Part shown: one piece after another, positions 28,626 through 64,000 of the stretch
How the letters are laid out: the number at the start of each line of letters is the position of its first letter
Position numbering within the stretch: the stretch's first letter is position 1
NCBI GenBank assembly: GCA_013239625.1
Contig: MU057342.1
Location: 2,604,335-2,668,334 of the forward strand
DNA from: Lama guanicoe
Taxonomy: Eukaryota
Length of the DNA stretch: 64,000 nt
Direction of reading: 5' to 3'
Notes under the pieces: model-generated
What the model was told of the DNA's origin: nothing
What the model saw: only the letters and a program-made list of their open reading frames with translations
Databases searched by the model: none
Program-made: the position numbers and the translations under genes

Positions 28626-28654
28626 CAACAGAAAAGAATAACAATGACAGATAA

Positions 28655-28795: not shown

Positions 28796-28799
28796 AAAC

Positions 28800-37829: not shown

Positions 37830-38030
37830 ATTTGGACTCAGAACACTACGACAGATCCTTCTTCCAGCCCTGGCTTAGCTAGGTGACCTTGGCATGTCGC
37901 TTAAACCTGTTGTCCTCATCTCATCTCATCTCTCTCCAGTATGTGCATGACACTACTTGCCCTGCTTAATCTCAAAGGATTAACAGAATGAAAACACTCT
38001 TTGAGTCTAAATGCACTATGTAGAAAGAAG
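37830..38030 (+). mobile_element. MIR fragment
   Basis: tagctaggtgaccttggcatgtcgcttaaacct...ctcaaaggattaacagaatg. Confidence 0.55.
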
Positions 38031-39859: not shown

Positions 39860-40310
39860 TCCAGTCTCTCCTTCATTTAGGGTATTTCTCACCTCAGCCT
39901 CCTCTCTATCTTCTCTGAAATGCCCTAGTTCAAGACATCATCAGTTTTTGTTTGGTGTATTGCTTCCAGCCTCTCTCATCGCTGCTTACTATTGCTTCTG
40001 CGCTTAAGTCCACACTCCCCAGCTGAACATGCAAGACCTTCCATAATCTGACCCCCATCTAACTTGGGCTCTTGTCCCTCATGTGCCCTCAGTTCTACTC
40101 TTGCTGGACCCTGCTCTGAGTTCCATGCCTCCAAGTCTTCATGCCATGCTATTTTTTCTGTCTTCCCTGTTTCTCTTTCTTGGACACTCAGGCTCTCATC
40201 TGTACTCTCATGGAGAGCTTTTCACTTGTCTATTAAAAGGCTTGTAACTTTCTTTGCCATGTGTCAGTTATTTGTGTTTATAGCTCGGTCCCCTGTGCCT
40301 CCTACCTAGC
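39860..40310 (+). mobile_element. L2 fragment
   Basis: tgccctagttcaagacatcatca...caagaccttccataatctgaccccc...ccatgcctccaagtcttcatgccatgct. Confidence 0.6.
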
Positions 40311-43159: not shown

Positions 43160-45460
43160 GAACATTCATCATCATTCATTCATTCCTCCATTCATTGAAC
43201 AAATATTGACTGAGCACCTATCATGCACCGAGCAGCATCCCAGGCACTGGGAATATGGCAGAGAATGTAACAGACCTCCAGCCCCCCAGTGGAGCTTACA
43301 GTTCAGTGGGTGGAGACTGACAATAAATGAAAGAAATACAAAAAATAGTAAGCCAGGTGATGTGATGTGCTACGGAGAAAAGGGGCAGGGAAAGGACATA
43401 GGTAGTGCCAGTGACATCTGAGCCAATACTTGAAAGGAGGGAGGGGTGGAGACTCATGCAGATCTCCAGGAGCAGAGCATTGTGGCAGAAGGAACAGCAA
43501 GTGCAAAGGCCCTGAAATGCACCAGACGTGGTTGAGGAATCCAGCTCGGCCTTGCAGAACACAAGGTGGCCAAGGTGCCTGGAGCTGAGTGAGAGAAGGC
43601 GAGCACAGTAAGATGTAAGGACAGAGGAGTAAGAGCCATCAGCAGTCTGGAGCAGGAAGACAATTAGCAGAGTGTGGATCGTGGGAGCAAGGAGAAGAAA
43701 AGCATTTCGCGGTGGAGAAAGTGAGTGGTCAGTGTTAGGAAATGTGGCCAAGAGGGCAAGTAAGGACTGAGCATGGACTCTTGAAGTTAATGCTGTGGAC
43801 GCTGTGGGCGGACCTGACTAGAAGGACTTAGGAGGAGGGAAGGGGTCAAAGGCGCAACCGCAGGGAATTCAAAGAAGAGTGGGAGGAAAAGAATGGACAA
43901 CAAAGCAGTACTGAAAAGTGTAGAGAAATGGAGTGGTTATTGGAGGAGGAAATGCTGTGAAGAAACATTGTTTTTTTTTTTTAAATAAAGAACTTATACA
44001 ACTCAATAGCAAAAAGGCAAATNNNNNNNNNNNNNNNNNNNNNNNNNNNNNNNNNNNNNNNNNNNNNNNNNNNNNNNNNNNNNNNNNNNNNNNNNNNNNN
44101 NNNNNNNNNNNNNNNNNNNNNNNNNNNNNNNNNNNNNNNNNNNNNNNNNNNNNNNNNNNNNNNNNNNNNNNNNNNNNNNNNNNNNNNNNNNNNNNNNNNN
44201 NNNNNNNNNNNNNNNNNNNNNNNNNNNNNNNNNNNNNNNNNNNNNNNNTTCGTGGGAATGTCAATTGGTGCAGCCACTGTGGAAAACGATATGGAGGTTC
44301 CTCAAAAAGTTATAAATAGAACCATCATATGATCCAACAATCCTACTTCTGAGTATATTTCTGAAAGAAATGACATCACTATCTTGAAGAGAAGATGTCT
44401 GTACTCCCATGTTCATCACAATATTATTCACAACAGCCAAGGTATGGAAACAACTGAAGTGTGCCTTAAGGGATGAATGAATAAAGAATATGCAAGTTAC
44501 ATGATGGAATATTATTCACCCATAAAAAAGGAAATCCTGCCACTCTCACCAACATGGATGAAACCTGAAGGAGTTATGTGAAGTGAAAGAAGTCAGTCAG
44601 AGAAATANNNNNNNNNNNNNNNNNNNNNNNNNNNNNNNNNNNNNNNNNNNNNNNNNNNNNNNNNNNNNNNNNNNNNNNNNNNNNNNNNNNNNNNNNNNNN
44701 NNNNNNNNNNNNNNNNNNNNNNNNNNNNNNNNNNNNNNNNNNNNNNNNNNNNNNNNNNNNNNNNNNNNNNNNNNNNNNNNNNNNNNNNNNNCCACTAAGC
44801 TTTTTTGTGGTCATCGATTCACAACATACATGCATAGCCAATCATTACGTTGTATGCCTAAAACTTACACAATGTTATTTGTCCATTATATCTCAATAAA
44901 GCTGAGGGGGGAGTAAAAGAAAGAAAAAAAGGTTGTTTTTGTTTGATTGGTTGATCATTTGTTTTGTCCTGTTTTTCAAATGAGAGAAATAACAGCCTGT
45001 GAGTAGGCTGTTAGGAATGGACCCAGTGGAGGGAAGGACTGGTGATGCTAGAGAAAGAAGGAAACTGGTCAGAATGAGCAGGGGGAATGGGTGGGAGGGG
45101 GAGGACCCAGGGCACGAGGGCACGAGGCTAGCTTAGGCAGCAGCAGGAACAACTCCTGATCTGGAAAAAAGAGGAGGCAGAGAATCCAGCACCAAGGTTT
45201 GGATGCAGATGTGCACCAGGAGCTCACGCAGCTCCCTCCCCACAGCTCTGTCATCTTCTCAGTGGAACAGACAGGGGATGTGTGGTCAGAGAGGCCCCAC
45301 CCTGTAGGGGCTGAGGTGTGACGCCAAGCGAGAAGGGGCTGCAACATGATCTGAGCTATTTGTGGGGTTTTTTTTTGATAGACCAAAGTGGTAGCAGTGG
45401 ACGTGGGGTAGCGATCAGATTCTGAATGTATTTGAATACAGGTAAGTAGGGAAGAGTCCG
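43160..45460 (-). mobile_element. Long L2 fragment split by an L1 insertion
   Basis: cattcattcctccattcattgaacaaatattgactgagcaccta...ggagcttacagttcagtggg...gaaggaacagcaagtgcaaaggccctga; L2-like text resumes at about 44960 (gagagaaataacagcctg...ggaatggacccagtggaggg). Confidence 0.8.
43982..44930 (+). mobile_element. L1MA-type 3' portion (end of ORF2 + 3' UTR) with two N runs
   Basis: aaagaacttatacaactcaatagcaaaaa; gtgggaatgtcaattggtgcagccactgtggaaaacgatatggaggttcctcaaaaa; ttatatctcaataaagctg. Confidence 0.92.
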
Positions 45461-46449
45461 TGAAGTATACAGGGTGCTTTGTTTTCCTCCCAAACCAATA
45501 CAACGAAACCAAGAGATGTTATTACAGCATTTAAACCAAAAATCAGTAACATTTCAGCTGCTTTTACTGACATCAATCCAGTTTTTAGCTAGCAAAACTA
45601 TTCCAGAACTGTGGCAATATCAATAACTGACGCCAGTGAATACATAAAAACCACTGGCGTTGTAAAGCATTATAGAAATTGCAGCTGTAGTTAAAAGCAA
45701 GGCATCTGTGTCTGTTCCAATAAGCCAATTGTCAGCAATGGATCAATAAATCACAGAATTAGCATGGAAAAATATTTCAAGCTTTCCAAGATCAAAGAAT
45801 GGATAGTAAAATATTAACTTGATGCCCTTTTAACTTTCTTTTCTCAATATTTATTAGTGTTTGACCTCCCTTGAAACGAGAGTTCCATTATAAGCTCTTT
45901 TGACAAATGGATTGAGAAGTTGCTCAAAGCACTCCATCATCACTAAGTATTTTCTCTCCACTGAAACACTATTAGTCTGCATTTTACAGTAACTCTCCAC
46001 AGCGTATCAAAAACGTGCATCTCTGCACAACACGGAAAAGAACTAGGAAGACTGCCCTTTCTCTCCCTCCTCTGCCGCCCATAACTACAGTTACAGATGC
46101 TCATTCTTACAGATAAAGCTGGGACATGCAAATTTGCATGGCAAGGTCAAAGTACCATTATAAAAAATGTCCACTCCTGGTCATTCATGAGGTCCATTTT
46201 AAACATATTTTAGCTAATATTTAGGCCTTGGAACAACCGAAATATATGAGGAGCCCAGCGCTTCCCTTCAAATTTATAACAGGAAATAATATGCATAAAA
46301 CTTCCCAGAGAGTAAAGAGCAGAAGTCCCTTCCTCCTCTTTTCCCTAGCTCAGGTTTTTTTTTGAGAAGCATTAACTTTTGTCACCCAGATGTTCTGTGC
46401 TACCCTAAAGGGCATATAAGATAGATTCCTGTAAGAATCATGGTGGGTT

Positions 46450-46885
46450 TTGACAAATTTCTAGAATTTAATACTAAAGAGACAATAAAAGATGCAAAAA
46501 TATTTAGCTGCAAGGATGTTCATCACTGCATGGTTTATTAGAAGGAAAAACTGCAGCTAACCTTAATGTCTAAAAATGGGTTAAAAAAAAAATAAGTACC
46601 ACCCATTTGGTTAAACTAGCAGAGCCACTAAAAATGATTTCAAGTCCTTAAAGATGTGGAAATAAGTTCATGGTGGATTTTGAAATAAAATTAATATGAA
46701 TGGTCTGACCACACTTTTGTTAAAAGAAAACATGTATTTACATGTATATTCATATGCAAGGAAATGAGAAGCCTAAACAGCAAAAGAGTTTGTGTTATTA
46801 TTTCTACATGTAGGATTTTCAGGGAAGTTGTCTGTTTTGCTCATCTGTGCTTTGTTCTAATTTTTCCGTAAGTATCTCTTTATTA
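46450..46885 (+). mobile_element. Old L1 (L1ME-type) 3' fragment
   Basis: gcaaggatgttcatcactgcatggtttatta...ccttaatgtctaaaaatggg...gcagagccactaaaaatga. Confidence 0.65.
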
Positions 46886-49240
46886 CTTGTGTTATTGGAA
46901 AACTGTCAGTAAATATGACTAAACATTATCCATGGGGACACTCCAGTCTCACAAGAAGACTGCTTGGCCAAAGGCACCCCAGTGGCTCCTGACCTTGTTT
47001 GCTTCGTAGACATGTGGTTATGTTGGTGCTTAAGCCCTAATGCGGCTCAGAGATGGCCTTCTTCCATGGATCTGTGACAATCGGCTCAGCAATCAGGCCG
47101 ACTGTATTCTTCAGGCACCAAGTGCAAGGAAATGGGAAGAGCAGCAGAGACCCAAATACCCACAGAACCACAAAGAACGAGGCTTTCGCAGTAAGCTTCG
47201 AGTGGGATGTGTCATCATGTTGGTTGCCATTGCATCAAAGCAACAGAGATTTTCCAGCAGCAAAAATGCAGCCAGAACATCCCTGGGGGATAGATGGTAG
47301 GGGGCACACAGGGGAGACAAGCAAAGCCCTAGAAAGAGAGCAAGAGCCCAACACACCCTTGGTCAAATGGGCCTTGTGCTATAAAACAGCATAGCACACT
47401 AAGGGAAATTCCAGCTAATTTCAGGGCCAAGACTCAATAGAAGGCCCAAGCAATTTCCAAAGACTCCTTTAAATTAAGCGTGAAGTCCCCAAAGAACTAA
47501 ATTCTAATACCTTGAACTTCAAACAAACTGCTTTAAAAGCAACACTAAAAACATCAAACAGAAAGTGGATTAAGTGCACGCTCTATCTGTAAGAGCTTGC
47601 TTAAGACAAACTCAATTACTTGTTCCGAAATGAGATACAGGTTTGTTTGGATTTACTGATAGGCTTGTCCTGATAAATGAGAATGACAGATCTAAGGGGA
47701 AAAAGCTTCAGTTCTCTCTCTTGGTTCACACTGAAAACCAAACCTCCAGATAAATGCATCAATGGGTAGCTGCGCTTTGCAAAGCAAAACAGGGCAACAT
47801 CCAAGGAATGCCAAGCCCAGTATTGACTTTTATCTTCTGTGCCATCTATTTGCATATAGAAAGCATAAGGGCATAGTTTCCTCTGGAAATAGTCAGCTTT
47901 TCCCCCTTCGGATGGTGCTTATTCCAAATAAGTATTTCTGTCTGCCATCACCCTCTGTTCAATTCTAGAATTTGCTCTCATCTGATTTTGGCCTATTTTT
48001 CAGTTCTGAGCAGAGGGCACAAGCCCGTGTGCCATGCTTGCCCGGCAGCACACTCACGCCTACCCTCACTCATGCTGGCCTTTGTGAGGCTGCCAGCACC
48101 CCCCTCTCGGAGACATCTGTTGCCTTGCTTAAACCAAGAAGCCACTGAAGCACGTGACTGGGCCGAGCAGACTCAGAGAGTGCCACCTCCAACAAGAGGC
48201 GTCTGTCCACTTCGCCTCTCCCCTGCCATTTCCTCCTCTAGCCTCGGCCTCAACAAGTGGCCAAGCCTCACACAAGCTGTCAGGGACAGATGCTATGTGA
48301 AAAGAGGAAATTGGACTCAAAGATGCTACAGCTTTTTAAATTAAGTCCAACCTAAAAGCCAAATAGTGAGGCATGAAATGAATACTTCCTTGCAAATAAG
48401 CACCACATTTCAAAAACAAATGCATTTGTTCAGAATAGTTGGCCGCTTATGAGCTTCGTCAAACGTTTCATTGTTCCTCATTCAGCGCCTCCGATATTCT
48501 CCCTTCTGCGGTGGGAGGTGGGAAATGCGTTTTGCATTGGTACATCGGTATCCTGAGTCTTTCTTTGTTGTTTCCTTCCTCCGCTGTCCCTAGGCTAGTT
48601 GTGTTGGCAGGAGCTGGCGTGTCCACACACAGCCAAATGCACACAGCTACTCATCACTCACCTCCTCGCTCCACAAACATCCACCAAGTGCCTACTACAC
48701 GTCAGGCCCGGCTTTACAGGATAGGCTAAGAAAGAGGAAGAATGGCAACACGGTTCTGGCTTTCCTCTCCCCGGTTCCCCCAAGCTAAGTCTAGTCATTC
48801 TCTTTGTCTCCATGTCTTTGTCTCCATTTTTCTCTAGTTTACTATTTGTTTGCTCTCCTGTTCTTTATTGTCCATCCCTGTGTGCTGCCTGCTAATTAAA
48901 GCTGACAAGAGGCCCAGGGCCTCGGCTGCAATTCTCAGCCTAAATGGCCTAGACCCTTGTTGATTACTAAGGACGGTGAGGACTCAGGGACAAGACCACA
49001 TGGACTTCTAGAGAGAAAAAAACAGGGAAGAAAAAAAAAACAAGACAAAACAAAAACCCTCAGATTCAGATGGACAAACCTTAAAATACATATAACCATC
49101 TCTGAGGGAATCAAAATACAGACGGGTCTCATTAAGATTTATTATTTTTCTCATTTTCTTTTCATCATTTCAACCATATAGAAAATTAAATATATTATTT
49201 AAGAGATTAAGAACGTCACCATACATTTCTAAATCAATAA

Positions 49241-49369
49241 GGGGGGAAGGGGTCGGGGTACAGCTCAGTGGTAGAGGGCATGCTAAGCATGCACAAGGTC
49301 CAGGGTTTTATCCCAAGTACCTCCACTAAGAAAAAATAAAATAAAATAAAATAAAATAAAATAAAATAA
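49241..49369 (+). mobile_element. tRNA-Ala-derived SINE, camelid vic-1-like
   Basis: ggggtacagctcagtggtagagggcatgctaagcatgcacaaggtccagggttttatcccaagtacctccactaag followed by (AAAAT)n tail; A box intact, B box degenerate. Confidence 0.85.
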
Positions 49370-49399
49370 GGAAGGAAACTCAGGTATCGCCTTGCCTGC

Positions 49400-49500
49400 T
49401 TTATAGACCAGGAAACCAGGGAGAATGACTTGTCCAAGACCACAGAGCCAGGTAGTTGCTGAGGCCAAGGTTCGATTCCCAGGTCCTCTGATTTGTTCCC
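49400..49500 (-). mobile_element. MIR fragment
   Basis: gaatgacttgtccaagaccacagagccaggtagttgctgaggccaaggttcgattcccaggtc. Confidence 0.65.
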
Positions 49501-50009
49501 CCTTCCCTCCTATCCATAGCCCCAGCCAAGTGCACTCTTCCCCATTCAGTGTATTCTATTATATCAGCATTTAAAAGTATTTCATGAATTAGGGATAAAG
49601 AAGGTAAAGCATATGCTTGCCGTGAAAATCTGATGACAATGCCTGGAGTTTTCTTTAGATAATCATAACACCCAAAATTTTGAAAAGAAATTCTGAAAAG
49701 TAAATTTCAGACAAATCCTATCAAGAAGATGGGAAGAAGAAAGAATGAGGCTGTTCCAAGATCATACTCACCACTGGATAACCATCAGGAAAGGAATATC
49801 TGACTTCGCTATTTTTTTCTTAGTCTCATTAAGGAAGACAAAACTTAAAATAAGAATTTGATTTCACTGGATCTACTAGTTATAACTCTTTGGGTTAATG
49901 GACCGAAAAACACCCCAAATTGGTTAATGCAGTAAAAGAATACATTGTTCTTAGAACTAAAAATCCAAGAAGGTGGTCTCATATCAGGAATGGCTGGACA
50001 CAGAGCTCA

Positions 50010-50215
50010 AATGGTGACAAACACCTATATGGTCCATACCAACTGCAGGGCACTGTTCTCAGTACTGCGAGTAGATGTTATAATGATTCCCATTTTTATG
50101 GATAAGGAAACAGAAACCTGGAGACTAACTTGCCCTGAGTGACCCTGATAGTAAACGGCAGAGCAGTTCAAACCCAAACAATCTGACTTCAGAGTCTAGA
50201 TTTTAACCAGTGCCT
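50010..50215 (-). mobile_element. MIR SINE
   Basis: attcccatttttatggataaggaaacagaaacctggagactaacttgccc...gtaaacggcagagcagttcaaacccaaacaatctgacttcagagtc. Confidence 0.75.
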
Positions 50216-51599
50216 CCTCACATCACCACAATCCAGTTTTGTTCCATCTTTCAAATCCACCTCCTCTGTGGGTCCATTCTCTTTGAGATGCTCCCCTCCC
50301 GGAAGCAGACAGCTGAAATAGCTTGAGCCTCAAAACCTGACAACTCCAAGCCCAGTAAAAAAAAATCAAGGGTTTCTTTTCCAAAAGTCCCAAGACAAGT
50401 CTCCCTGCATCTCATTGACTTGAGCCAAACATGGGAGAATACTAATGTTCTGATTTGCCAAACAAACCTGGGTTGCATATCCCCCTTGAGCAGAATGTGG
50501 AATCAACTCCACAGGAAACATATAGATAGAAATAAAAGGAGGTGACTATCAGAAATGTGACTGAAATACTGGGTGGTAAAAACAATAGGTGAACATTACA
50601 TTGTAAAATTTCACCACAATAATTAAAGTATTTCTTTTTCAATTATCCAATAGAAGCTCTAAGTCTTCAGGTATTATAGGCATCCTAGATGACCTGTGGC
50701 AGCTTTCTTTTTTTTTAAAGGATTAAGATGTATGAAAAAAATGAATTAAGATAGGACAATTGTGATAAATTTTATAATCATGGACTACCTCTACCAAGCC
50801 CATTCACATCAGTTTTCTGATTCCTCAATGAACTGTGAAATCAGAGAATTTTCACTTTAGGGTGGATATCAGAAATCATCCACCATCCCAAGATCCCACA
50901 TGGAGCAGTGGCTGTTCCCAGTGCATCCAAGGACCACTTTACCAGGCTGGTCTGCTTCTGACCTTGCCCTGCTTTTATGTACGGCATGGCCGATAGAGAA
51001 GAGGCGATGCCGCAGAAGACATCTGCACTTCCCTCCACCCTGTGGAAACCACAGAACTACACTCCCCTTATCTCTCGTCTCCCTCATCACCCCATCCCCA
51101 CGTGTAGACCTTGCCTTCAACTGCACACCTCCCAGCTTGCCCTGTTGTCATACCAGAGCCCCTACCCTGCTTCTTAGGATAAAATACTTAGGATTGCCTC
51201 CTCTGAAATAAAGATGAGTCCTACCACAATCTTTTAAGCACCCCAAGATCCACTGTTATCCTCTAAGCAGTCTTTATCTTTCCCCATGTGAGTCTGAGTG
51301 GAAACAAGTAAGCTGAGAGAGAACGGAGTGGTGGGAGGAAATGGACCTCAGAAGGACCAAACTCCAGAAGGGTGGGTATGATGTACCACCTGGAAAAGAT
51401 GCTACAGAGGGTTTGTGAGTGCTCACTAGGAGCTATTGTGACCTCCTGGCTTGGGAGGTCAGAGAACTAGACCCAACACCCTGTAGCTGGACTCCAGCAA
51501 ATATTTCATTACATTTCTGAGGGCACCTTTATGAGTTGGATGACTGCCAGTAGGTGATACAATTAGTTGGACTGGTAACTGAAAGACCCGAACACTGGG

Positions 51600-52670
51600 A
51601 GTAGGCCATCAATATGATGCCAGAGGGCTATGACCTCAACTCTGTCCAGTTCCAAAATTCTGTCAGTAACCCCAGTGAGGATATTTGGCATACTGATCAA
51701 ACTGAGAGTTGAGGTGATGCTGGGAAGAAGAGCAATATTGTTGGATGACCTCATAAGGATCAAGCAAGACATACACCAGACCCCTGATGAAACAGAACAG
51801 TGATGAACATTAAGCCCGTGTTTGGGTGAAAATAAACACACGCAAGTCCATTATTGTGGAGACATACCTTTGCAGCCACATGTGTGAAAAAGGAGTTTTG
51901 GTTGACTCGACATGTGGTATGAGTCAACTCTGCACTGGGGTTGCCACAAAGCTAATGTGGTCTGGTGCTGCCCTGATGGAAACTGAGCTTCTAACTGTGG
52001 CTCGTGTGAGGCTTGCTGTAGTTCATGTGAAGCACACCACACCAGGAGTTCTGTGCTTAGCTCCTGATTTTAATCTAAGAGAAACAGAGACCAACCAAGG
52101 TTCAGTTGGAGACAAGTGACCATTATGGTGAAGGAACTGGAGATACCTAGAAGGGGGTGGAGATGTTTTGCCTGGCAAAAAGAAGGCTTACGTGAAACAT
52201 GAGAGCTGTCTTTAATGATATAATAAACTGTCTTGAGAAAGAAGGCTTCCATTTGTTCTGTGCATCACCTGTGGCTGCACCCTGACCAATGGTTGGAATT
52301 ATAGAAGGACAGGTTTTAATGCAACAGAAAGAAAACTTTCCAAAGGAATGGTCCCTAGATGGGAAAAAATGTTTAGGGAAGCATTCAAACAGAAGTCAGA
52401 AGATGATAAAGATGTCGTCGAGGGAAACAGAAAGGTCAGGTGGCTTGTTGGATCAGACCACTGGTTCTCAAACTGTGTTCCTCAGAGGTGTTTCAGGAAA
52501 AGTAGACAGAAGCAGCTGAGAGCATGAGGTCTCCCACACCCCATTTTAAGCAGAGTAGCTCCCCTGACCTGTTCACATAATGGGCTTCTGATGTGAAGGA
52601 AAGGTCATATTAAGCCCCAGGACTGGATGATCTCAAAGGTCCGTGTTCAACTCTGAAGTTTTGGGAATTA
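51600..52670 (+). mobile_element. L3/CR1 LINE fragment with an internal hAT-like insert (about 52455-52620)
   Basis: ttggatgacctcataaggatcaag...gtatgagtcaactctgcactggggttgccacaaagctaatg...gcctggcaaaaagaaggctta...gactggatgatctcaaaggtcc; insert starts cactggttctcaaactgtgttcc. Confidence 0.75.
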
Positions 52671-52759
52671 GTGATTTTTGAGATACGACTTTTCCTAAGA
52701 CTAGAGTGTGGGGGGTATGGGTGAGTTCTGCAGCCAGAATCATGAGGTTCAAATCCCAG

Positions 52760-53440
52760 GGCATTCATTTTCTTATTGCTGTGTAACAAATGAACACAAA
52801 CTCAGTGTTTCAAACAACTTGAACTTATCAAATCAAAGTCTCTGCAGGACAGAAGTCCAGGCAGGGCTTAACTTGGGTCCTCTGCTCAGGGCCTCACAAG
52901 ACTGAAACCGAGGTATTAGCCGGACTGTGTTCCTTTCTTGAGCTCAGGGTCTTCTTCCAAACGGCCAGAACTCATTTCCCTTAGGTGGATGGCTGAGCTC
53001 CTCACTCCCTTTGTAGCTGCTGGCGGGGGACCACTCTCAGCTCCTGAGGCCACTCTCTGGTTCTTGCCATGTGGCTCCCTCCATAGGCTTTTACAGCATG
53101 GCTGTGTGCTTCTTCGAGGTCATCAGAAGACTTTCTTGCTTTAATTCTCTCTCTCCAGGAAAAGCGCTCACCCTCTTATAAAGGTCTTGCCTGATTAAGT
53201 CAGACCCACCCAGCAACATCTCCCTCTTGATTAATTCAAGATCAACTCACAAAAGACCTTATTTATGTCTTCAAAGATCCCTTCCTCCTAGGTATATAAT
53301 GTAACCTGTTCAAGACAGTAAAGTGCCATCACCTTTACAAATGCCATCCACACTGAAGGGAGAGGATTCTCCAGGGTATGTGTGCTAGGCAGGGGTGGGA
53401 CAGGAATCTTGGGGGCCACCACAGAATTCTGCCAATCCCA
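52760..53440 (-). mobile_element. MLT1E-type MaLR LTR inserted in a MIR
   Basis: ttttcttattgctgtgtaacaaatgaacacaaactcagtg...gggtcctctgctcagggcctcacaagactg...gattaagtcagacccacccag...ggaatcttgggggccaccacagaattctgcc; MIR halves at about 52700-52758 and 53440-53600. Confidence 0.85.
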
Positions 53441-55229
53441 GGTGGCTTTTCCACACGTGGCTTCCGACCTTGGAAGAGGGGCTCCATCTCTCTGTGACGC
53501 AGTTACTTCATCTAGAAAGTGGGGACAATGACGCCTCAAGGGGTTGCTTGGAGGATTAAAGGAGTTCATACGTGAGGCACTGAGAACAGTAACATGGCTG
53601 CAGGTTCACCCAGGGTAAGTTACAACGTACTGTTGTGCAGGAATCCATGGTATCCTTAGGGATGGTCAGGCATCCTGTGGTCAGTGTGCTCTCAGGCAGG
53701 AGCTGCTAAAGTGGGTCAGAGCCGCAGCTTCATGGAGAGGTGGCTTCTGTTTTCTCTCCTGCGGGCCAGCTCTCCCCTTTGCTGCCATGTTCACTCTTTG
53801 GCTTTCATTTCCTCTGCCACTTTGGCTGTCCACCACCTGCTGTTATTCTTCCTCTTCTCTGTGTGTGTGGGTTTTTTTCTTCTTTCTCTGTTGCTTCTCT
53901 CATTATTCTCATTTTTTACACTGACAAAATTTGGTATTAATAGTCCAGCAAATAAGACTATGTCTTTCCTTCAAATCAGCTAACATTCTGTCATGTGATC
54001 CTTTTTGTTAGTATTCACTACTCATCGGTTCTTTAAAAAAAATTTTTTTTGTTTGCCATTGTTTCTGATTCCTGAAGTTATTACATTTTGACCTATTTTC
54101 CTGTTAGGTTAAATTTTCTCCTTTACTAAACAGATAAATCAGAAAATAATGTTTCACCTTTCAAAACAATTGAGCATCAGAATTTCCTTTTAATAGAAAA
54201 AGCCCCCAGTATGGTTAAAATATGATTCATTTGATAACAATTCATTTTCAAAAATAAGTTTCAGGAACTCTTCTATTACGCTAAGGGAATCAGCCCTGGT
54301 TGGCAACTAGCTTGCCAATTAAAACTATAATGAGAGGCTAGCAAAGGGGAAAGGCAGAGCAACTCCAGTCTGCCAAAGTCAACGCAAACAGCCAACACAA
54401 ATGCGGCCGTCAGCAGCATTTCAAAACACAGAACATTGCAGCCCTGTGCCCAGCACCTAGTAGGTACTGAGTGGAAATTTCTTGCTTTGAATTGAGGCGA
54501 TGTCTCAGTTGCAAGCTGTTAAACCAAGCTGAGGAGCTGTCTCAGGAACAGACTAACGTGGATCTACTTAATAAGCGTCCTTCCTTCTCCCTGATATCTA
54601 ATTCCAACGCGAAATAGAGTTTTCAAAACAAACAGAAGAACCAGTAGTAGTAAACACAGTTCAGCACAGACGGCCTGTATGGACAAATGAGCTGACACGC
54701 ATTATCAGCTACATCTTCAGTGTTCGCCGAAAACCAGCTGAGGTCATAGCTCCCATTCTAGCCTGTTCTATCATGCCGCTGGGAGTCAGCACGACTGTCT
54801 CTGGGCTGCTTATGTAGGAAGCCAGGAGTGAGTCTGGAGCCTCCCTACCACCCCAGCCACCCCAGTGCCGGCAGCAGAAGCTGTCGGCTGGCACCCCTCT
54901 GATATTTAACACACGGGCAGCACACAGGATGTGTCCCAGGAGCTGATGCCCAGGGCGCAGCGCTGGCCCCAAGGCCATCTGCACCTCAGGGAGGAAAGAA
55001 CAAAACACTCCACGGATAAATATCTCTTAGAGGCAATGGCTAGACAGGGCTCCGAGGAGTTGCCCCTTACGTGGAACCATCGTTTTTCATGCCATTGACA
55101 AAAGGCCAAAGAGCTATCGTGTAGGGAGAGAAAAGGGTGAGGACCCTGTAAAAGTGTAGACCCATTCTCAGATCACAAAGGTGTTTAAACACATGACTTC
55201 ACGTGATTCTCGTAGCTACGGGAGACCCT

Positions 55230-55735
55230 ACCGATATGAGCATAACTTGGTAAAACCACGGCAGAGAGAAATTTGCTCAGCATCACCAAAATTACAAATA
55301 CACATTTTCTTTGATGTAGTAATCCCATTCCTAGGGATTTATCCTACAGATATGCCTGCACATGTGGGAACTGATGCAACAACCTAGAAGTCCATAAATG
55401 GGGGGTACTTAAGTAAAAATTGTTCTGTATAATAGATATATTTTGTTATGTGAGAAAAGCAAGGTGGAGAATAGCGAATAGTATGCTACCACTTTCACAA
55501 GAGAGAAAGATGCATGTGCGTGCACACACACACACACACACAGTGATAGGTTATACATGCAAAGAATATCCTTGTAAGAGCACACAAGAAAATACAGGAA
55601 CACTGGTGTCTTCTGGGAAGAGAAACTGGGGCTGGGGACAGCAGTGTGGAAGGGAGACTTTCACTATTTACCTATTCATGAGTTTTGTACCATCTGAATA
55701 TATTGCTTATTCAAAATACACAATTTTTTAAAGCA
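55230..55735 (+). mobile_element. Old L1 3' fragment containing a (CA)n repeat
   Basis: tttgatgtagtaatcccattcctagggatttatcctacagatat...gggagactttcactatttacct; CA run about 55523-55542. Confidence 0.7.
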
Positions 55736-56289
55736 TCAAAATTTAGGTATTGCATTAGACAATGTGTGTCTAAGGGTGTCATAAATGATAAGCCCCATGT
55801 ATGCCTCAGTGACTGCTCTGTTTCTTATCCTCCACTTTTATTGAATGAAGACATTGAGGCTGAGGAAGGTAAGAGACTTGCCTTTGATCACATAACTGAC
55901 AATGACAGGTGTTTTCATGAAAACATGTTTGCAAGTTTATTGCTGAATGTCTGTCTTCTCTGCTAAGCTATTAGCAACAGAGTATAGGAACCACATCTAC
56001 ACCCAGCACCAAGTAGACTGTCTTGTACTCAGTATTTGTTCAATCAATTAATGAAGAAACAAATGAACGGAGTCTTACATCCTGAATGGCAGGAGTAATG
56101 ACAAGGTTTCCAGGGTACTGAAAACATACTGAAGTTCATCCAGTGGCACATGTTAGTTCAGTCCCAAGTGTAAATAGGCCCCCACGCTCTACTCAACGGT
56201 GCCCCATTCATCACTGATCGAGTGGGTCTGCTCTGCTGGTGATTCCTCCGCTCACGTCTTTGAGCGCTGGTGCTCTTGCGGATCTGCCG

Positions 56290-57245
56290 TAGACCTGACT
56301 TGATCTTCCCATCCTTTCCCCTCCCTTCCCTTCTCTTCTTTCTCACACACTCTTTGGTTAACTCACTCACTGCCATGGATTTAATTACCGCCTATACATC
56401 ATTTTTACCTCCAACCCACCCTCTTGAATTCCAGCCCACATGACCCACAGACTAATGAGAAACTCCATCTCTATGTTCTTCAGACTCCTCAAACCAACAA
56501 CCCCAAACCCAACCCCTTAACTTCCCCAGCCCTCTAAAACACCTCTCCTCCTTCTGTATCTTTAATCATAAAGAACTCCTCCCTCACCTTCATGGTCCAA
56601 TGGCTTCTATCTCCTAACTGCAATCATACCTTCCTTCTCCTTCCCATCTTAGCTTCCATGTTCTCAGCTGAGAACTTCTTTATGTTAACAACAGCCTCCT
56701 AATAGGGTCCCTGCTTCCTTCCTTACCCCTCAGCCCAATTCAGGATCTCCAAGGCTACCAGAAGCACTTTCTAAAACAGGAACTGGACCTTTCTAAAACA
56801 GGAACAGAACATTCTCCCTCTATTCAAACGCTTTATATTGGCCCATGCTGCCCATTAAAGTTGGAACCCCTAGACTGGTTTACACAGCCCTTTGCCCCTT
56901 CCAGACTCAACTCCCTCCATTCCCCCGTGAACCACACACCGGTCACACAACCACATCCCACTCCTGCCTCTCCCAGAAATGCCTTTCCTCCCATTCCTGG
57001 TGGGGAATTTGAGTCCAACGACCCACCTTGCGCTCACTGGGAGCAACTTTCCCTGTAACCTCAGGTTTCCCCTCCAGCCTCTCCACTTGAAGAGCTATGT
57101 ACATGCCGCCCTTAGAGCACTTCTGATATGGCCGTACAGTTATTTGTTTATGTGATGGTTTCTCTCTCATGAAGATGGGAGCCTTAGCCTGTATCCCTGA
57201 CACATGGAACAAATTAGGGTCTCAATAAATGTTTGTGGAACAAAT
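56290..57245 (+). mobile_element. L2 fragment, about 1 kb
   Basis: ctcactcactgccatggatttaattacc...aacagcctcctaatagggtccctgcttcc...cccagaaatgcctttcctccc...cctgacacatggaacaaattagggtctcaataaatgtttgtggaacaaatg. Confidence 0.85.
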
Positions 57246-58156
57246 GCATCTAGATGTCTAAACAACTAAATTACAAAGAGACTTTGTGTACATGAACTGT
57301 TAATATCTTAGGTGTTACCTAAATGAAGGGTTTTCTTTCAGTCTGGCATTTTTGTGGTATCTCTACACCCCATTACCAAGGACAGTTGACGTATGAGGGA
57401 AGATAAGGAAAGTGTGCTATTTTTAGGGGGCTGGGGCATAATTCCAATCGCCACAAGCATTTCAGCAGCTTTATTCTTCAGTTGCCCTTTTGACTTTGTA
57501 AATAATCACAATCTACAATTTCAGGAATACCATATTAATATTCCATGAAAGAAAATTAATTGATATACTGAATTCCTCAGGCGAGAATGATGCTATTACT
57601 CAAGCTACAAGAACAGGGCAGACGTGGAAGGTCAACTGGAAAGGGAAGGAAGTGGGGCTCTGGGCGAGGAGGGGGTGGGGCCTGACCTCTCTGGGGAACA
57701 GCTCTGGAGGGAGACGGGAGTGGGGGTGCAGGGTGCAGGGGCGGCACGGGGAAGCATGCTCACCCGGGGACCGCCCTTTTGTCAAACAGGTGGCAGACAT
57801 GCAGGTCCAGCTAATCCTCCTAATCACAGAGGATCTGGTCACCAACCAAGTCCGGGAGGGGCAATTTTAACTCCTCATGGGGAAGGGCTGGCAAGCCAGA
57901 AAGGAACCCCTGCCAAACAGGGGATGGTTCATGGCAGGATTTCAGACCTGGAGGGAAGTGGGGTCCTTGACAAAATAGACAAATCATAGAGATTGGGCCA
58001 ACATCTCCAAGCCTGCAGGAAGGCAGCAGACTGAAGGGTATGGGGGTGCAGAGGGGGCTCTCCCAAGATACCACAGATACCTGAACCATAGAAGCAAGAT
58101 GAATTCTCATCTTCCTGGCGATGGAGAGAATCTACTAACGGACTGCCTGACTTGAT

Positions 58157-58377
58157 CAAGTGTTGGCAAATTATGGCTCATGGGCTAATTCTGGCCAGCC
58201 ACCTGTTTTTGTAAATAAAGTTTTACTGGAACACAGCCACATTCATTTGTTCATGTATTGTCTATGCCTGCTTTTGCTCTATGAAGAGTTGAGTAGTTGT
58301 GACAGAGACCATATGGCCCTGCAAGGCTTAAAATATGTACTATCTGGCCCTTTGCAGAAAAAATTTGCCAACTTTTG
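58157..58377 (-). mobile_element. MER58A (hAT-Charlie), full length
   Basis: TIRs caagtgttggcaaat ... atttgccaacttttg; internal cctgtttttgtaaataaagttttactggaacacagccac. Confidence 0.92.
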
Positions 58378-58384
58378 GTCCAGA

Positions 58385-58507
58385 AAGTACCCAGGCTGCA
58401 TCTCAGACCAACTGAAATCAGAATCACTGGTGGCAAGACCCAGGCATGAGTACTTTTTAAAGTTTACAAGGTGATTTCAGTGTGCAGCCAAGGTCGAAAA
58501 CCACTGG
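58385..58507. mobile_element. MER5-family fragment
   Basis: cagaccaactgaaatcagaatcactgg...ggtgatttcagtgtgcagccaaggtcgaaaaccactg. Confidence 0.75.
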
Positions 58508-58589
58508 TCCAGCCTGTCGCAGCAACTCTAAGAAGCAGCTGAATGTGTCACAGAATTAAGAGTCCATGTCAGTTGAATGAGTCACAGGG

Positions 58590-58830
58590 AAGGGTGGTCC
58601 GGCGCTTGAGCTTTGGGGGAAAGAAAGGTCTAATTTGCATACTTTCTCTGCGACTTACCAGCTATCTAACCTAGACAACTCAACCCCTCAGCACCTCTGT
58701 TTTTCCATCTGTAAAATGGGCATAATAACAACACTTACTTCACAGAGTCACTGGGAGGATTAAAGGGAAATGCCTGTAGAGCTTTTAGCATCATTCCTGG
58801 CATATGCATTGATAAAAGGCAGCTAAACTA
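58590..58830 (+). mobile_element. MIR SINE
   Basis: ctctgtttttccatctgtaaaatgggcataataacaacacttacttcacagagtcactgggaggattaaa. Confidence 0.85.
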
Positions 58831-60029
58831 GGGGATGGACAAGAGTTGAGCTGAGAAGCTGACTCCATCCTGGCTTAGAGCAGCTGGAGGAGCTGGAGGA
58901 ATTCTCAGGGTGCCACATGAGGTGTCCAAAGAGAGATGTTCATGTCAGAGGCTGAGCAACGTCTTGAAGATGCTGCTGGGCAAGCCCTGTGCATGTGTTA
59001 TGACTGTGTTGGGGGTGGGGGTGGGGGTGGTCCAGGAGAGCCTGAGAGACGCCCATGGCTAAACTCTGCCCAAATCTCCCCCTGCTCTCGGGGCTCCCTA
59101 TTTTGGGCCCTAGCTCACATTCTGGATGCCAGCCATTTATCTCCCTGCAAGGCTCTGGCAGCTCCTGGTGAGTGCTTGTTAGAGACCCTGATGCCAAACT
59201 CCAAACCTTGCTGCTTGGACTGGGGCTGTGGTGCCTTTATGCGTGCCTGATACCTACCCTGCACACTCCTGCTTCCTGCCCACCTTTGCCCTGACACTGT
59301 GCCAGTCTGGCTTTGCCATCAGTCTGCTGCAGTCTACCAAACTCATATCCAGGGAACACAAAGAGGGCTCTGGTCTGCTATACACAGAGGACTTCTCTTT
59401 AGGGCAGACTATCCGGCCCCTAGAGATGCTCTAACAATATCTGTCCTCAACCATTCAATTAACAAGTAAAGGGTATGCATGCTGCAAAATTCTTGGAGCT
59501 GCTTGCTCAGCGAATGACCTGCATCAGGCAGGGAGGGTGGTTCTTGCATTTCACAGACAGGCCTGGGTCCCGTTTGGAGTTAGTAACCTCTCCCATCTAG
59601 TGTAAAGATGAGTGGCTCCTCAAAGGCATGACCAGAGTTCTTGGGAGCCCCGGCAGGGTTTGGAGACCCATCAAATCAGGAAATGGTAAGCAATGACCTT
59701 CATTAGCTGAGCCAGGGACATGATGTTTGCAATCAGCCATCTCTTCCTGCATATTGGTTTAAGGCTTGGGGTAGAACAGGATCAAGCTGAGTGGCTAGTT
59801 CCAGAAAAGCCTGGCCAACGCTATCCTGAACGTAATACATAAGAAGGAAGGGTGGCTTAGCACCATTCCAGGCCCCTATCCATGGGCCCCTGCCCCCCAA
59901 ACAGGCAGTGCATGTGATGATCAGAAATAACAAGGGGTCAAGTCATGATTAAGGGACAGTCCTTCAACACACATGGAAAATCCTAGAACCAGCCAATGGG
60001 AAAAATCTATTTAAAATGGTAACAATGAT

Positions 60030-60232
60030 ATTAATGGCTTCCATTTATTGGGAGCTTACAAAGTACTTGGTGATTTTTGTATTTACATGCAATTTCTTCT
60101 TTATTATTTACAACCAACTTATGATGACTTGGAGAGTTAAGTGCTAGCACAGCCACCTAGCTTTTAAGTGGCAGGACTGAGATTTGAATTCAGGTTTCTC
60201 TGACTCTAAAGCTCCCACTCTCTAATTACTCT
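60030..60232 (-). mobile_element. MIR SINE
   Basis: catttattgggagcttac...aagtggcaggactgagatttgaattcaggtttctctgactctaaagc. Confidence 0.75.
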
Positions 60233-60610
60233 ATAATTAATAACTTATACAGCTTCCCCGGAAAAAGCTAGTTGTGCTTTGCTGTGGCATAATCTTGTTC
60301 CACCAAACAGTGTTGGACTGAGCCATGCCCCAGGGGAGAGCCTCCAGCCCCTCTGAGAAAGGGGCTGCACCTCTCTGCTCTGGAAGGTTCTACCTCATGC
60401 CTGGGACTTACCTCTGGCATGTGTACCTTTCCTCTAGGGTCTCAGAGTCCCTCCAGAAACTGCTTGTGGATTCCTGTTCCAGACTCTCTTTACACTTTCT
60501 CACTTGGCTGCTCCTTGGAGAGCTCTTAGAGACTTGCATCTGATCTTCCTGTATCAAGAATCTATTCTTGGCTCCATCCCTGGGTCACAAATGGTCAACG
60601 ATTTACTCAC

Positions 60611-60668
60611 CTAAGAAGCAACCAGCTCCTCTCCCCAAACAGTTCTGATAAAACATTGTATCTTTCAT
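60611..60668 (-). other. Candidate 58-nt exon (not frame-preserving)
   Basis: Minus strand atcttttgttcttcttag|ATGAAAGATAC...GCTTCTTAG|gtgagtaa, canonical sites on both ends. Confidence 0.25.
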
Positions 60669-60784
60669 CTAAGAAGAACAAAAGATCTAATTCTTTCACC
60701 AGCAGAGCACAACACTGTGGCCTGCTGAGCTTACACCAGGATGTATCTCGCCCACCTCCTGGACCTCTAGCCTTGCCCCCAGCT

Positions 60785-60995
60785 GGTTAAAGGCACTGAC
60801 TGGGGAAGCAGACCGCCTGGGCTCAGTCTTGGCCTGAATGGCCCTGGGTGAGCTATCAACTTCACTTTCCTCATCTGCAAACTGGAAATAACAACAACAC
60901 CTCTTTTAAGGCGCTGTGGTGAGGACTGAGATGATATATTACATATAAGTACTTAGCTCAGTGCTGGTGCAAGATAAATACTAACTGTTATTACC
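60785..60995 (+). mobile_element. MIR SINE
   Basis: cagaccgcctgggctcag...ctttcctcatctgcaaactggaaataacaac...gtggtgaggactgagatgatat. Confidence 0.75.
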
Positions 60996-61219
60996 AGTTG
61001 TGGTTATATCGCTGTTTCTCCTCTGGTTGTTATTATATATTCACTTAATCAAAATTAACTGCCCTACTTTCAAAACCGCGCAGAAAATCACGTGTTACTC
61101 TTCAAGGACTGGAGTCTTGCACATGAAGAAACACCCAGGTTCAAAAATTGACTGTTCTGTCCACTTGCCCCCAAATACAGTGCATTACTCTTAATGTCAT
61201 TTGACATTTTCTTTAAGAC

Positions 61220-61560
61220 TTGACCATATATTCTCTAACTTAATCCCCACATCAACTTGTAAAATCTACTTTGCAGATAAGGAAACTGAGTTTCAGAGGT
61301 GTCAAATAATAATAATGATAATATGATGATGATGATTAGTAACATTTATTTTGTGCTTCCTATGTATTAAAGACGAGTTTAAGAAGCTTCTTCAATTTGC
61401 AAAACCACACTATGAAATAGATGTTACTGTTACGCCCATTTTACAGACAGGGAAACTGAGATGCAGAGCGATTAAGTAACCCTCTAAGGTGATAGGGTTC
61501 ACAGAGATAATGGGAACTGGATAATTCCAATCCCCTGGTGTGGTGCCTGAGTTCCACAGC
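61220..61560 (-). mobile_element. Two MIR fragments
   Basis: ttgcagataaggaaactgagtttcagagg; cccattttacagacagggaaactgagatgcagagcgattaagtaac. Confidence 0.8.
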
Positions 61561-61637
61561 TAGCTTTGGCAGAGGACAGAGAGAGACAAGACCCACGGAT
61601 GGGCCTCTGCTATGGGTTCTGTCCCTACCCTATAGCT

Positions 61638-61662
61638 CACACACACACACACACACACACAC
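61638..61662. repeat. (CA)n microsatellite
   Basis: cacacacacacacacacacacacac. Confidence 0.95.
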
Positions 61663-62599
61663 CCCACCCTTCACAGTGGATGACCTAACTCTCCTTCTCA
61701 CTATACAACTCTGTGATTATTACTTAATCTATAGAGACCATCCTCTGCCAGTTTTGGAGAGGCCAGAGTTTTCTCAAGGGACAGAGAATGAAGTTGAATA
61801 TTTTCCCAGCCACATTAGAAATGATGTCTCTGTTTTAGCACAACATAAAAACGTGTTTTGTTTTGTCGTTTAACAGCCTTTCTTTGATCTGCACGTTGGC
61901 TGCAGACTGGCTGTATGCACTGTCCTTCCCTCGCGGGCCGAGTCTGGGCCTGAGCAAAGCTAGATCACAGTCCTTATAAATCATCACCTTCCATCCATGC
62001 TCATCTTACTAGTGTCACAGCTCTGTCACTGCCTTGATTAGTGCAGGAAAAAGGGAGTCACGATTAAGTGAGATAAATCTGTGCTGCCGGGGACACACCA
62101 GATGAGTCGGTAAACTGCCCAGTTGTCGGTCACTTGGAGAGCAGATTCCAGCTGCCCCGGGGCCTGGGAAACACAAAGCTCAGAGAGGCTGCGGAGCAGC
62201 TGCTCCTCTCTTATAAAGCTTTCAGTAACTGTGGAGAGGAAAAAGCCAGATATGTTGCCCAGACCAAGTGGAGCTTGTACCATGTGAGGTTCACGTTTTG
62301 ACAAAAGCATGGAAAGGAGACTGTCTCATGCTCTGGATTATCTTTTTTGCCAGTCAATGAGCAAGAACTTGGCCAGACTGCCCAACGGGACATTCACCGT
62401 CAATCTTATTCTAACTTGTCTTTGTGATGCTTTGTGGAATGTTCACATGCACTGTTCAAATGACAAAAGCTTTAAAAAGAATTATTCGCTTGGCTCACCA
62501 TTACCTACTTTCTGCCAATGCAGAAATGTCATGGTGCAAGTAGGCCACAAGTGAAACACAGAGCGACGCACGTTTCTGGGAACTGGTACCTAAGGATGT

Positions 62600-63087
62600 G
62601 GTACCATCTCAAAGGATGGTCTGGGGAATCCTGGGAGTCCTTCACACCTGGGATCTGAGAGGTCAAAACTATTTTCATAAGAACACTAAGACCTTATTTG
62701 ACTTGTTCACTCCCATTCTCTCTCAAGGACAGAGTTTTCCAGAAGATACATGACATGGGATATGGCATCAGATTGGATGCAAGAACAAATAAGAGAATCT
62801 AACCATCTTCCTTTAAGCCAGACACCACAGAGATTTGTAGCAAAATAAAACAATGACATTATTCTAATTATTTTTGGAAAACATAGTTTTTTTTAATAAA
62901 AATAATTTATGTTAACATACATCTGGCATATTGTTTGAAATGAACTGATAAATTATTTTTTGCATTTCTCAGTTTTAATTTCTCATATGGTGAGTATTGA
63001 TTGATATAACCCACAGAAAAGTATTTGAGGTCCTCAATTTTGCAAAGAATGACAAGATTCTGAGCCTCAAAAGCTTAAGAATCACTG
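62600..63087 (+). mobile_element. Charlie4a-like hAT DNA transposon
   Basis: gaggtcaaaactattttcataagaacactaagac...gagttttccagaagatacatgacatg...ctttaagccagacac...gatataacccaca...aaaagcttaagaatcactg. Confidence 0.8.
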
Positions 63088-63892
63088 ACCTAGAAGCATC
63101 TGACAACTTTATTTTCCCCTCGGGGGAAGCAGTCCTTCCTTCTTGGCTCAGCAGCCAAGCATCCACCTGTTTCAGACTCACCACCATCTTGGTCTTGGGT
63201 GCAGGCTGTCCCCTCTGCAGACCCATTACCTGCCTTGCCCTAAATCCTTACCGCTGAATTGTCTTTGTTTTGCCCATGACATGGGTCCAGGAGGGTCACA
63301 GTTGTTCATCCTCCCTGGCAAGGCAGAGAGTGGCTTTCCTCGGCCTGCCAGCTCTCAATCAGGCAGGATTCACATGCATAAGAGGACTGCCACTTCTGCC
63401 TGGACTGTCACTCCACAAACGCCAGCGATGGGGTTAGGTAGACACATGCCCATCTACAGGTTGAAGGTGGGAGGGAGCTGCTCACAGACCCCTGGGGGAT
63501 AAGGACCCTGAATGTGGACAGCAGAGACTGGGAGGGAGCCCCGTGCCTGTGGTGAGGGGCAACAGTACTGGACAGATCAAGGGTCCCCTCCATACGTGAA
63601 AACATTATGACTGACACAAAAGCCACAGGCAGGGCTACTTTCTCTGCAGGTTCCAGGGACCTCAGAAGCCTTGTCTCTATCTCTCTCCTGAAAATCACAT
63701 TAAAATATTCATTTCAATCGAATCCACCTAAAACCAATGATCACTGACACTGTGTAAAATCCGGTGCGAAGAAGTGCAAAGATTGGTAAGAAATGCTCCC
63801 TCCTGGCCCTCCAAGAGCAGGACAAGCCTTTTGTGGAGCCTCACATTAGCAGCCAAATGATCAGACTTGAGTTTTTAACTCACGTCTCTTAC

Positions 63893-63904
63893 CTTGCCTG
63901 TTTT
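63893..63904 (-). CDS. Candidate 12-nt microexon (AAAACAGGCAAG) of an unidentified minus-strand host gene
   Basis: gactttgctttttctccttgcgtgctttcattccttctag|AAAACAGGCAAG|gtaagagac|gtgagt; strong acceptor and donor, UGC motifs, length divisible by 3, no stop in any phase. Confidence 0.45.
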
Positions 63905-64000
63905 CTAGAAGGAATGAAAGCACGCAAGGAGAAAAAGCAAAGTCGCTAGAGAAAGCGGAGAAACAAAAGCCCTAAATAATTCACGAGACTGGATGATCAA

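What the first reader, a model, noticed from the sequence alone, without database searches (positions are those of the whole stretch)
63884..63972. Neural-type 12-nt microexon with an in-frame 21-nt alternative donor
Seen: the minus strand reads about 65 nt of almost pure pyrimidine (gggcttttgtttctccgctttctctagcgactttgctttttctccttgcgtgctttcattccttctag). Then come 12 nt AAAACAGGCAAG (63904-63893) and a near-consensus donor AAG|GTAAGA. A second donor, GAC|GTGAGT, lies exactly 9 nt further on and gives 21 nt, so both forms keep frame. The 12-mer reads KTGK, xNRQx or xKQAx depending on phase; the 21-mer reads KTGKVRD or xNRQGKR, with a stop in phase 2. Three UGC triplets sit in the tract just upstream of the AG. 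Established: long U/C tracts with UGC near the 3' splice site and frame-preserving lengths of 27 nt or less are hallmarks of SRRM3/SRRM4-activated neural and endocrine microexons, which gene predictors often miss. Inference: this is a real, possibly unannotated microexon, and the rest of the window is largely its downstream intron.
Basis: partly seen in the sequence, partly recalled or inferred. Interest (0 to 1): 0.7.

Follow-up and report, generated by a model that had tools for sequence, protein, structure and literature searches.

The report
Microexon look-alike inside CHN2 intron 1
A 12-base stretch with exon-like splice signals sits in the middle of the first intron of the beta2-chimaerin gene and would add four amino acids if used, but it is likely a rarely used decoy rather than a missed brain exon.

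Summary
The letters are as described: TAG|AAAACAGGCAAG|GTAAGA at 63904-63893 (minus strand), a second GT 9 nt on, and UGC at -35, -22 and -18. The tract is 76-82% pyrimidine, not almost pure, and holds a second AG at -43.

The host gene is CHN2 (beta2-chimaerin). The whole window lies in its 135-kb phase-1 intron 1, so the site is on the sense strand and in frame. It would insert ENRQ (12 nt) or ENRQGKRH (21 nt) after Ser16.

For: it has the strongest signals in 0.93 Mb scanned, by a post hoc filter.

Against:
- 0 of 205 CHN2 proteins from shark to human that span the junction carry a +4 or +7 insert.
- The acceptor has no TNA branch-point core, unlike 5 of 5 control microexon sites in this genome.
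- A filter loose enough to admit those controls finds 12 other sites, 4 in this window.
- CHN2 is absent from two SRRM4-target tables that list control genes.

No reads and no other mammal's DNA were obtained, so inclusion and conservation are untested. Verdict: most likely a cryptic or pseudo-microexon (0.6); regulated microexon 0.27; donor of an alternative first exon 0.12.

The parts
1..64000 (-). Part of intron 1 (about 135 kb, phase 1) of CHN2 / beta2-chimaerin. Exon 1 ends 63.7 kb beyond the window end (window coordinate 127654); exon 2 starts about 7.6 kb before the window start.
   Evidence: tblastn of CHN2 proteins on the window plus neighbouring G000 stretches; splice junctions read; gene named by PDB 1xa6 and homologue names
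63905..63972 (-). Pyrimidine-rich tract (76%; 87% in the last 30 nt) ending in the TAG acceptor; no TNA branch-point core within reach of this AG
63946..63947 (-). Competing upstream AG at -43; its use would give a 53- or 62-nt exon with an in-frame stop
63920..63939 (-). Three UGC triplets (starting at -35, -22, -18), lying inside the pyrimidine tract rather than after it
63893..63904 (-). Candidate 12-nt microexon; would read E-N-R-Q between Ser16 and Asp17 of beta2-chimaerin
   Evidence: in-silico junction translation; inclusion not shown
63887..63892 (-). Strong donor AAG|GTAAGA (7.3 bits)
63884..63892 (-). 9-nt extension to the second donor; the 21-nt form would read E-N-R-Q-G-K-R and turn Asp17 into His
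63878..63883 (-). Weaker second donor GAC|GTGAGT (2.4 bits)

Best explanation
The site is a sense-strand, in-frame AG/GT pair in CHN2 intron 1 that is likely a cryptic (pseudo-) microexon, skipped in nearly all transcripts. Shown: the position in the intron, phase 1, open frames, a strong donor, a long pyrimidine tract, and no TNA branch-point core for the 12-nt acceptor. Inferred mechanism: U1 could bind AAG|GTAAGA and U2AF the tract. U2 would have no good branch adenosine between the AG at -43 and the acceptor, and 12 nt is too short for ordinary exon definition. Exon 1 would therefore be joined straight to exon 2. Leaky inclusion in cells rich in SRRM3/4 would be harmless, because it keeps the frame and falls in the Ser-rich N-terminal tail; nothing would then select against the site.
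For: 0 of 205 CHN2 proteins that hold both the exon 1 peptide and the exon 2 anchor have a +4 or +7 insert, and none has ENRQ: 190 have the canonical spacing, 3 one extra Ser, 1 a shorter linker and 11 other inserts of 11-51 aa (356 proteins fetched, 260 with the anchor). The three camelid records (P0004, P0137, P0142) do not have it. The candidate has no yUnAy or TNA core, while 5 of 5 control sites, CHN2 exon 2 and 10 of 12 background sites have yUnAy. In 4 of 5 controls the last 15 nt before the AG are only 47-67% pyrimidine, against 87% here; the set-back tract is the described SRRM3/4 layout (bioRxiv 10.1101/2024.09.17.613571, passages). Twelve other sites in 0.93 Mb pass a filter that admits the controls; four lie in this window, two of them antisense. 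Chn2 is absent where Itsn1 is present in the table S2 file of PMC8797185. CHN2 is absent where APBB1 is present in the SRRM4-versus-GFP table of PMC7935315.
Against: It is the top site of 925,868 strand bases under the strictest filter, and 0 sites passed in 4 Mb of Markov-5 sequence. It is on the sense strand, both donors keep the frame, and neither form makes a stop. The sequence is unique and CpG-rich for this intron (8-9 per 300 nt, 95th percentile), which hints at constraint or low methylation. One control (AGRN-like 33 nt) also has 87% pyrimidine next to its AG. CHN2 is expressed in neurons (5.43 against 1.19 in progenitors; PMC7935315 supplement). Only up to 15 members of each large protein cluster (525, 333, 176, 111 members) were seen, and none but the representative of the 333-member fish cluster. 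Gene predictors miss 12-nt exons. CHN2 may be too low in HEK293 to be scored. Branch points without the -2 U exist (own knowledge).
Confidence: 0.6

Rival explanations
1. A real SRRM3/4-activated microexon, young or low in inclusion (camelid or cetartiodactyl), or conserved but overlooked. SRRM3/4 bound at the UGCs would rescue the weak branch point in neurons or endocrine cells. ENRQ would be inserted four residues before Tyr21 and the N-terminal segment that keeps beta2-chimaerin closed, which might tune its activation by diacylglycerol.
For: Top-ranked signals; UGC at -18 and -22, within the -10 to -38 range of the controls; sense strand, in frame, no stop; a UGC between branch point and AG is found in 74-79% of SRRM3/4 microexons (bioRxiv 10.1101/2024.09.17.613571, section 10); neuronal role of beta2-chimaerin (PMC4388020, passage). 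The role of the N-terminal segment and of Tyr21 is recalled; the paper read gives autoinhibition by the N-terminal SH2 module (PMC7430845, passage).
Against: 0 of 205 proteins; no branch-point core; absent from two target tables with working controls; 0 papers with CHN2 and microexon in the main text. The exon 1-exon 2 spacing is nearly invariant from shark to human.
Confidence: 0.27
2. Only the donor is used: it ends an alternative, non-coding first exon started from a nearby intronic promoter or enhancer, and the pyrimidine tract is leader or regulatory DNA. Splicing to exon 2 would place the ATG that opens exon 2 in a purine -3 context. That ATG starts the alternative-frame peptide MLKNTSLQYGN, found at the head of shorter annotated isoforms that skip exon 3 or exon 4.
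For: Two neighbouring CpG-rich patches at 63700-64200 and 64150-64650. CHN2 has many first exons: five human start sites (PMC7430845, passage), 55 of 260 anchored proteins with another N-terminus, and three such N-termini mapping in this intron. Ten proteins begin with the alternative-frame exon 2 peptide. A missing branch point would not matter.
Against: No transcription start evidence. No ATG in the 36-codon open frame leading to the donor. The CpG level is far below the exon 1 island (8-10 against 26-37 per 300 nt) and is matched by several other patches in the intron.
Confidence: 0.12

Closest known systems
SRRM3/SRRM4 (nSR100)-dependent neural and endocrine microexons, e.g. the 12-nt RSLE exons of the L1CAM family
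   Same: Length 12 nt, frame kept, strong donor, long pyrimidine tract, UGC within 25 nt of the AG, neuronally expressed host.
   Different: No branch-point core; shortest AG-free zone (39 nt against 44-97 in controls); tract runs up to the AG (87% against 47-67% in four of five controls); no protein record of inclusion; not in the target tables checked.
Cryptic microexons / pseudo-exons of long introns (the 'CR' class, under 10% inclusion in over 90% of samples, with or without UGC; bioRxiv 10.1101/2024.09.17.613571, passage)
   Same: Good local splice signals, no annotated product, several look-alikes in the same intron on both strands.
   Different: Its signals are at the strong end of the background, and its sequence is unique and CpG-rich. 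The two sense-strand look-alikes in the window resemble old LINE-2 sequence (recalled resemblance, not tested).
Annotated cassette exons in CHN2 intron 1 (e.g. the 13-aa primate insert ending in ELPKY)
   Same: Same intron, same phase, insert between Ser16 and Ala18.
   Different: Those are 11-51 aa long and each is restricted to a lineage; none matches ENRQ or maps to this site.

Membership tests
SRRM3/4-dependent microexon | Internal exon of 3-27 nt between AG and GT in a transcribed sense-strand intron | tested here: met
   12 or 21 nt on the sense strand of CHN2 intron 1; met as sequence, not as a spliced product
SRRM3/4-dependent microexon | Frame kept, no stop in the host phase | tested here: met
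   ENRQ or ENRQGKRH in phase 1
SRRM3/4-dependent microexon | Strong 5' splice site | tested here: met
   7.3 bits against 4.1-7.4 in five controls, with an approximate matrix
SRRM3/4-dependent microexon | UGC between branch point and AG | tested here: inconclusive
   UGC at -18, -22, -35, but no branch point can be placed
SRRM3/4-dependent microexon | Strong branch point and pyrimidine tract set back from the AG (weak 3' splice-site context) | tested here: not met
   No TNA core in reach; last 15 nt 87% pyrimidine. 5 of 5 controls have yUnAy, and 4 of 5 have 47-67% (feature). Motif test only; SVM-BP was not run.
SRRM3/4-dependent microexon | Inclusion in neural or endocrine mRNA, skipping elsewhere | not testable with these tools
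   No junction reads obtained; none of the 24 runs listed is labelled as neural tissue
SRRM3/4-dependent microexon | Response to SRRM3/4 gain or loss | tested here: inconclusive
   CHN2 absent from two published tables with controls present; coverage of CHN2 in those cells is unknown, and an exon missing from VastDB cannot be listed
SRRM3/4-dependent microexon | Conserved across mammals or vertebrates (exon and flanks) | tested here: inconclusive
   Protein level: 0 of 205. DNA level: no other mammal's sequence obtained; the two metagenome pattern hits were unrelated
Cryptic microexon / pseudo-exon | Near-consensus splice sites without an annotated product | tested here: met
Cryptic microexon / pseudo-exon | Inclusion under 10% in nearly all tissues | not testable with these tools
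   needs RNA-seq
Recursive splice site (AG|GT, zero-length) | Pyrimidine tract directly followed by AG|GT | tested here: not met
   The tract ends in TAG|AA; the AG|GT lies 12 purine-rich bases later, behind two other AGs

The most novel reading that the evidence does not exclude
An unannotated, possibly lineage-restricted SRRM3/4-switched microexon with a 12/21-nt donor choice inserts ENRQ or ENRQGKRH just ahead of the autoinhibitory N-terminal segment of beta2-chimaerin. This would give neurons or islet cells a Rac-GAP with altered sensitivity to diacylglycerol, and the exon would be recognised without a canonical branch point.
Probability: 0.15. Interest if true: 0.55.

Novelty: new member of a known kind. 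Interest (0 to 1): 0.2.

Why it matters
If the exon is spliced in, it would be the first microexon reported for CHN2 in the searches made. It would sit next to the segment that controls a Rac-GAP used in axon pruning, and it could be tested by one RT-PCR. If it is a decoy, as is more likely, it shows how often strong-looking microexon signals arise in long introns. It also shows that the branch point and protein records help to tell decoys from real exons. Neither outcome would be a new kind of system.

Tried and rejected
Reads: one search listed 24 runs. Fourteen RNA or presumed-RNA runs held 0.36-0.38 of the words of 63000-64000. No read or contig data were obtained for the locus, so these shares are no evidence either way.

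Conservation through collections: a degenerate acceptor-exon-donor pattern found 2 stretches in metagenome contigs. Neither aligns to the CHN2 region beyond the motif, so both are chance. Earlier findings of the scan: nothing by relatives, sequence or words.

Uninformative supplements:
- PMC7821500: 8 files; no Chn2, but the control Itsn1 occurs only in code.
- PMC10639058: 1 file; the control APBB1 is also absent.
- PMC5630039: 11 of 27 files searched.
- PMC4317164: 4 of 5 files searched.
- PMC9303857: 12 of 18 files searched, no control term.
- 7 of 19 files of PMC7935315 were not searched.
- Two papers asked for by id were not held, and bioRxiv supplements were not seen.
Any of the unseen files could list a CHN2 event.

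Controls: of the regions fetched around four Bravo_FIGEY hits and seven other gene hits, five short-exon sites were used. Two translate as RSLE and one is AGRN z11-like (labels recalled); two are presumed from position and signals only. The KDM1A, MEF2 and shorter AGRN microexons that I expected from memory were not recovered.

Rejected readings:
- Recursive splice site: no AG|GT at the end of the tract.
- Structured RNA: folding z = -1.0; best Rfam match E 0.64, far below its cut-off.
- High-copy repeat: single match in G000.
- Coding first exon: no ATG in the open frame.
- KTGK or KQA readings: wrong phase for this intron.

Full report
Observation. The minus strand reads TAG|AAAACAGGCAAG|GTAAGA at 63904-63893, with a second GT nine bases on (GAC|GTGAGT, 21 nt) and UGC at -35, -22 and -18. 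The quoted 68-nt tract has 16 purines (76% pyrimidine; 82% over the 60 nt before the AG, 87% over the last 30) and contains a second AG at -43. The stretch has one match in the own genome.

Host gene. I fetched 100 kb on each side and scanned for exons. One exon matched beta2-chimaerin (PDB 1xa6, E 2.4e-54) and CHN2 proteins, with 100% identity to a Camelus ferus record; the genome is camelid-like. tblastn placed six CHN2 exons on the minus strand. Exon 1 ends at window coordinate 127654 and exon 2 starts about 7.6 kb before the window. The whole window is therefore intron 1 (about 135 kb), and the candidate lies 63.7 kb below exon 1 on the sense strand. Exon 1 ends one base into a codon. Joining the real exons in silico gives SS-ENRQ-DAEEY for 12 nt and SS-ENRQGKR-HAEEY for 21 nt, both open; use of the -43 AG gives a stop.

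Is it more than chance? I scanned 925,868 strand bases of this contig with approximate, recalled splice-site weights. Under the strictest filter, set after seeing the candidate, it is the only site. One step looser, a 3-nt site on the antisense strand of the same window also passes. Markov-5 sequence gave 0 in 4 Mb at both levels and 3 at the next. That filter, however, selects strong acceptors rather than microexons: none of five control short-exon sites from the same genome would pass it. The controls are two RSLE exons of the L1CAM family and an AGRN z11-like exon (labels recalled), plus two sites presumed to be microexons. A filter that admits all five finds 12 other sites (13 per Mb), four of them in this window and two of those antisense (the candidate was outside that count because it lies near the window end). 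At such rates a 2-Gb genome holds thousands of look-alikes against some hundreds of true neural microexons (inference; the latter number is own knowledge).

Architecture. SRRM3/4 microexons are described as having a strong donor and a strong branch point and pyrimidine tract set back from the AG, with a UGC between branch point and AG in 74-79% (bioRxiv 10.1101/2024.09.17.613571; passages and section 10 read). The candidate has the donor (7.3 bits) and UGCs at plausible distances. Its tract runs up to the AG (87% in the last 15 nt against 47, 53, 53, 67 and 87% in the controls). It has no T-N-A core from 12 nt above the previous AG down to -15. All five controls, CHN2 exon 2 and 10 of the 12 background sites have yUnAy. 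The nearest yUnAy motifs are at -11 (too close) and -93, which is followed by three earlier AGs. This is a motif test only.

Protein records. Three homologue searches and two cluster look-ups gave 356 distinct proteins. Of these, 260 have the exon 2 anchor and 205 also the exon 1 peptide. Of the 205, 190 have the canonical spacing, 3 one extra Ser, 1 a shorter linker, and 11 inserts of 11-51 aa; none has +4, +7 or ENRQ. The set runs from sharks to human and includes camel and alpaca models. Limits: only up to 15 members of each large cluster were listed, and 12-nt exons are easily missed by gene predictors.

Literature. No paper held has CHN2 and microexon in its text; a search for CHN2, splicing and exon inclusion gave four papers (listing). 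In one of them, human brain long reads show a switch between two annotated CHN2 isoforms (PMC10807796, passage). Chn2 is absent and Itsn1 present in the table S2 file of PMC8797185, whose mouse sheet holds Srrm3/4-dependent and control exon groups. CHN2 is absent and APBB1 present in the SRRM4-versus-GFP table of PMC7935315, described there as 314 exons from HEK293; the same supplement shows CHN2 rising in neurons (12 of 19 files searched). Five other supplement searches were uninformative (with 29, 67). These tables list only events known to VastDB and covered in those cells.

Not obtained. No reads and no orthologous DNA from another mammal were obtained, so the two decisive questions, inclusion and conservation, stay open.

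Mechanism and rivals. Most likely (0.6) the site is a cryptic microexon. U1 and U2AF could bind, but without a usable branch point and with only 12 nt between the sites exon definition would fail, and exon 1 would join exon 2 (inferred). Any leak would be tolerated in the Ser-rich tail. Second (0.27), it is a real SRRM3/4-type exon, young or rarely included; a conserved, highly included exon takes about 0.07 of this, given 0 of 205. The insert would lie four residues before Tyr21 and the segment that helps keep the enzyme closed (recalled; autoinhibition by the N-terminal SH2 module is stated in PMC7430845, passage). Third (0.12), only the donor is used, by a non-coding first exon. The area is CpG-rich for this intron (95th percentile) and CHN2 has many starts. 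The junction would put the ATG that opens exon 2 in a purine -3 context; ten fetched proteins begin with that alternative-frame peptide. There is no evidence of a start site.

Verdict. The pattern is real and well placed, and the host gene, phase and peptide are now fixed. The case for a functional neural microexon is not made, and the available tests lean against it. Whichever reading holds, it is a member of a known kind. Interest 0.2.

Noticed in passing
L012:2401-2439 (minus; CHN2 exon 2, outside the window): Exon 2 begins with ATG, and its second frame (MLKNTSLQYGNRT) is open. Ten fetched CHN2 proteins from frog to lemur start with this peptide and rejoin the main frame by skipping exon 3 or exon 4: a possible conserved dual-frame exon that removes the normal N-terminus, or an annotation by-product of exon skipping.
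   Followed up: partly
window 972-967 (minus): 6-nt sense-strand look-alike TAG|AAAAAG|GTAAGC with a 92-nt AG-free zone, yUnAy at -26 and a 7.1-bit donor; the surrounding sequence resembles LINE-2 (recalled, not tested).
   Followed up: partly
window 12765-12748 (minus): 18-nt sense-strand look-alike with an 85-nt AG-free zone and a 5.7-bit donor; resembles a LINE-2 3' end (recalled, not tested).
   Followed up: partly
window 24073-24075 and 55851-55868 (plus): Two antisense look-alikes with AAG|GTAAGA-class donors (7.3 bits); useful as chance controls.
   Followed up: partly
window 41495-41430 and 17863-17816 (minus): Stretches similar to alternative N-termini of CHN2 models from pangolin (P0025, E 1.6e-5) and lynx (P0147, E 1.2e-5): possible orthologues of alternative first exons inside the window.
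   Followed up: no
L006, window-equivalent 111879-111835 (minus): Matches the alternative first-exon peptide of camel CHN2 isoform X2 (P0142; 14 of 15 residues).
   Followed up: no
L001, window-equivalent 63700-64650: Two adjacent CpG-rich patches (8-10 CpG per 300 nt; intron median 3) flank the candidate; possible unmethylated regulatory element.
   Followed up: partly
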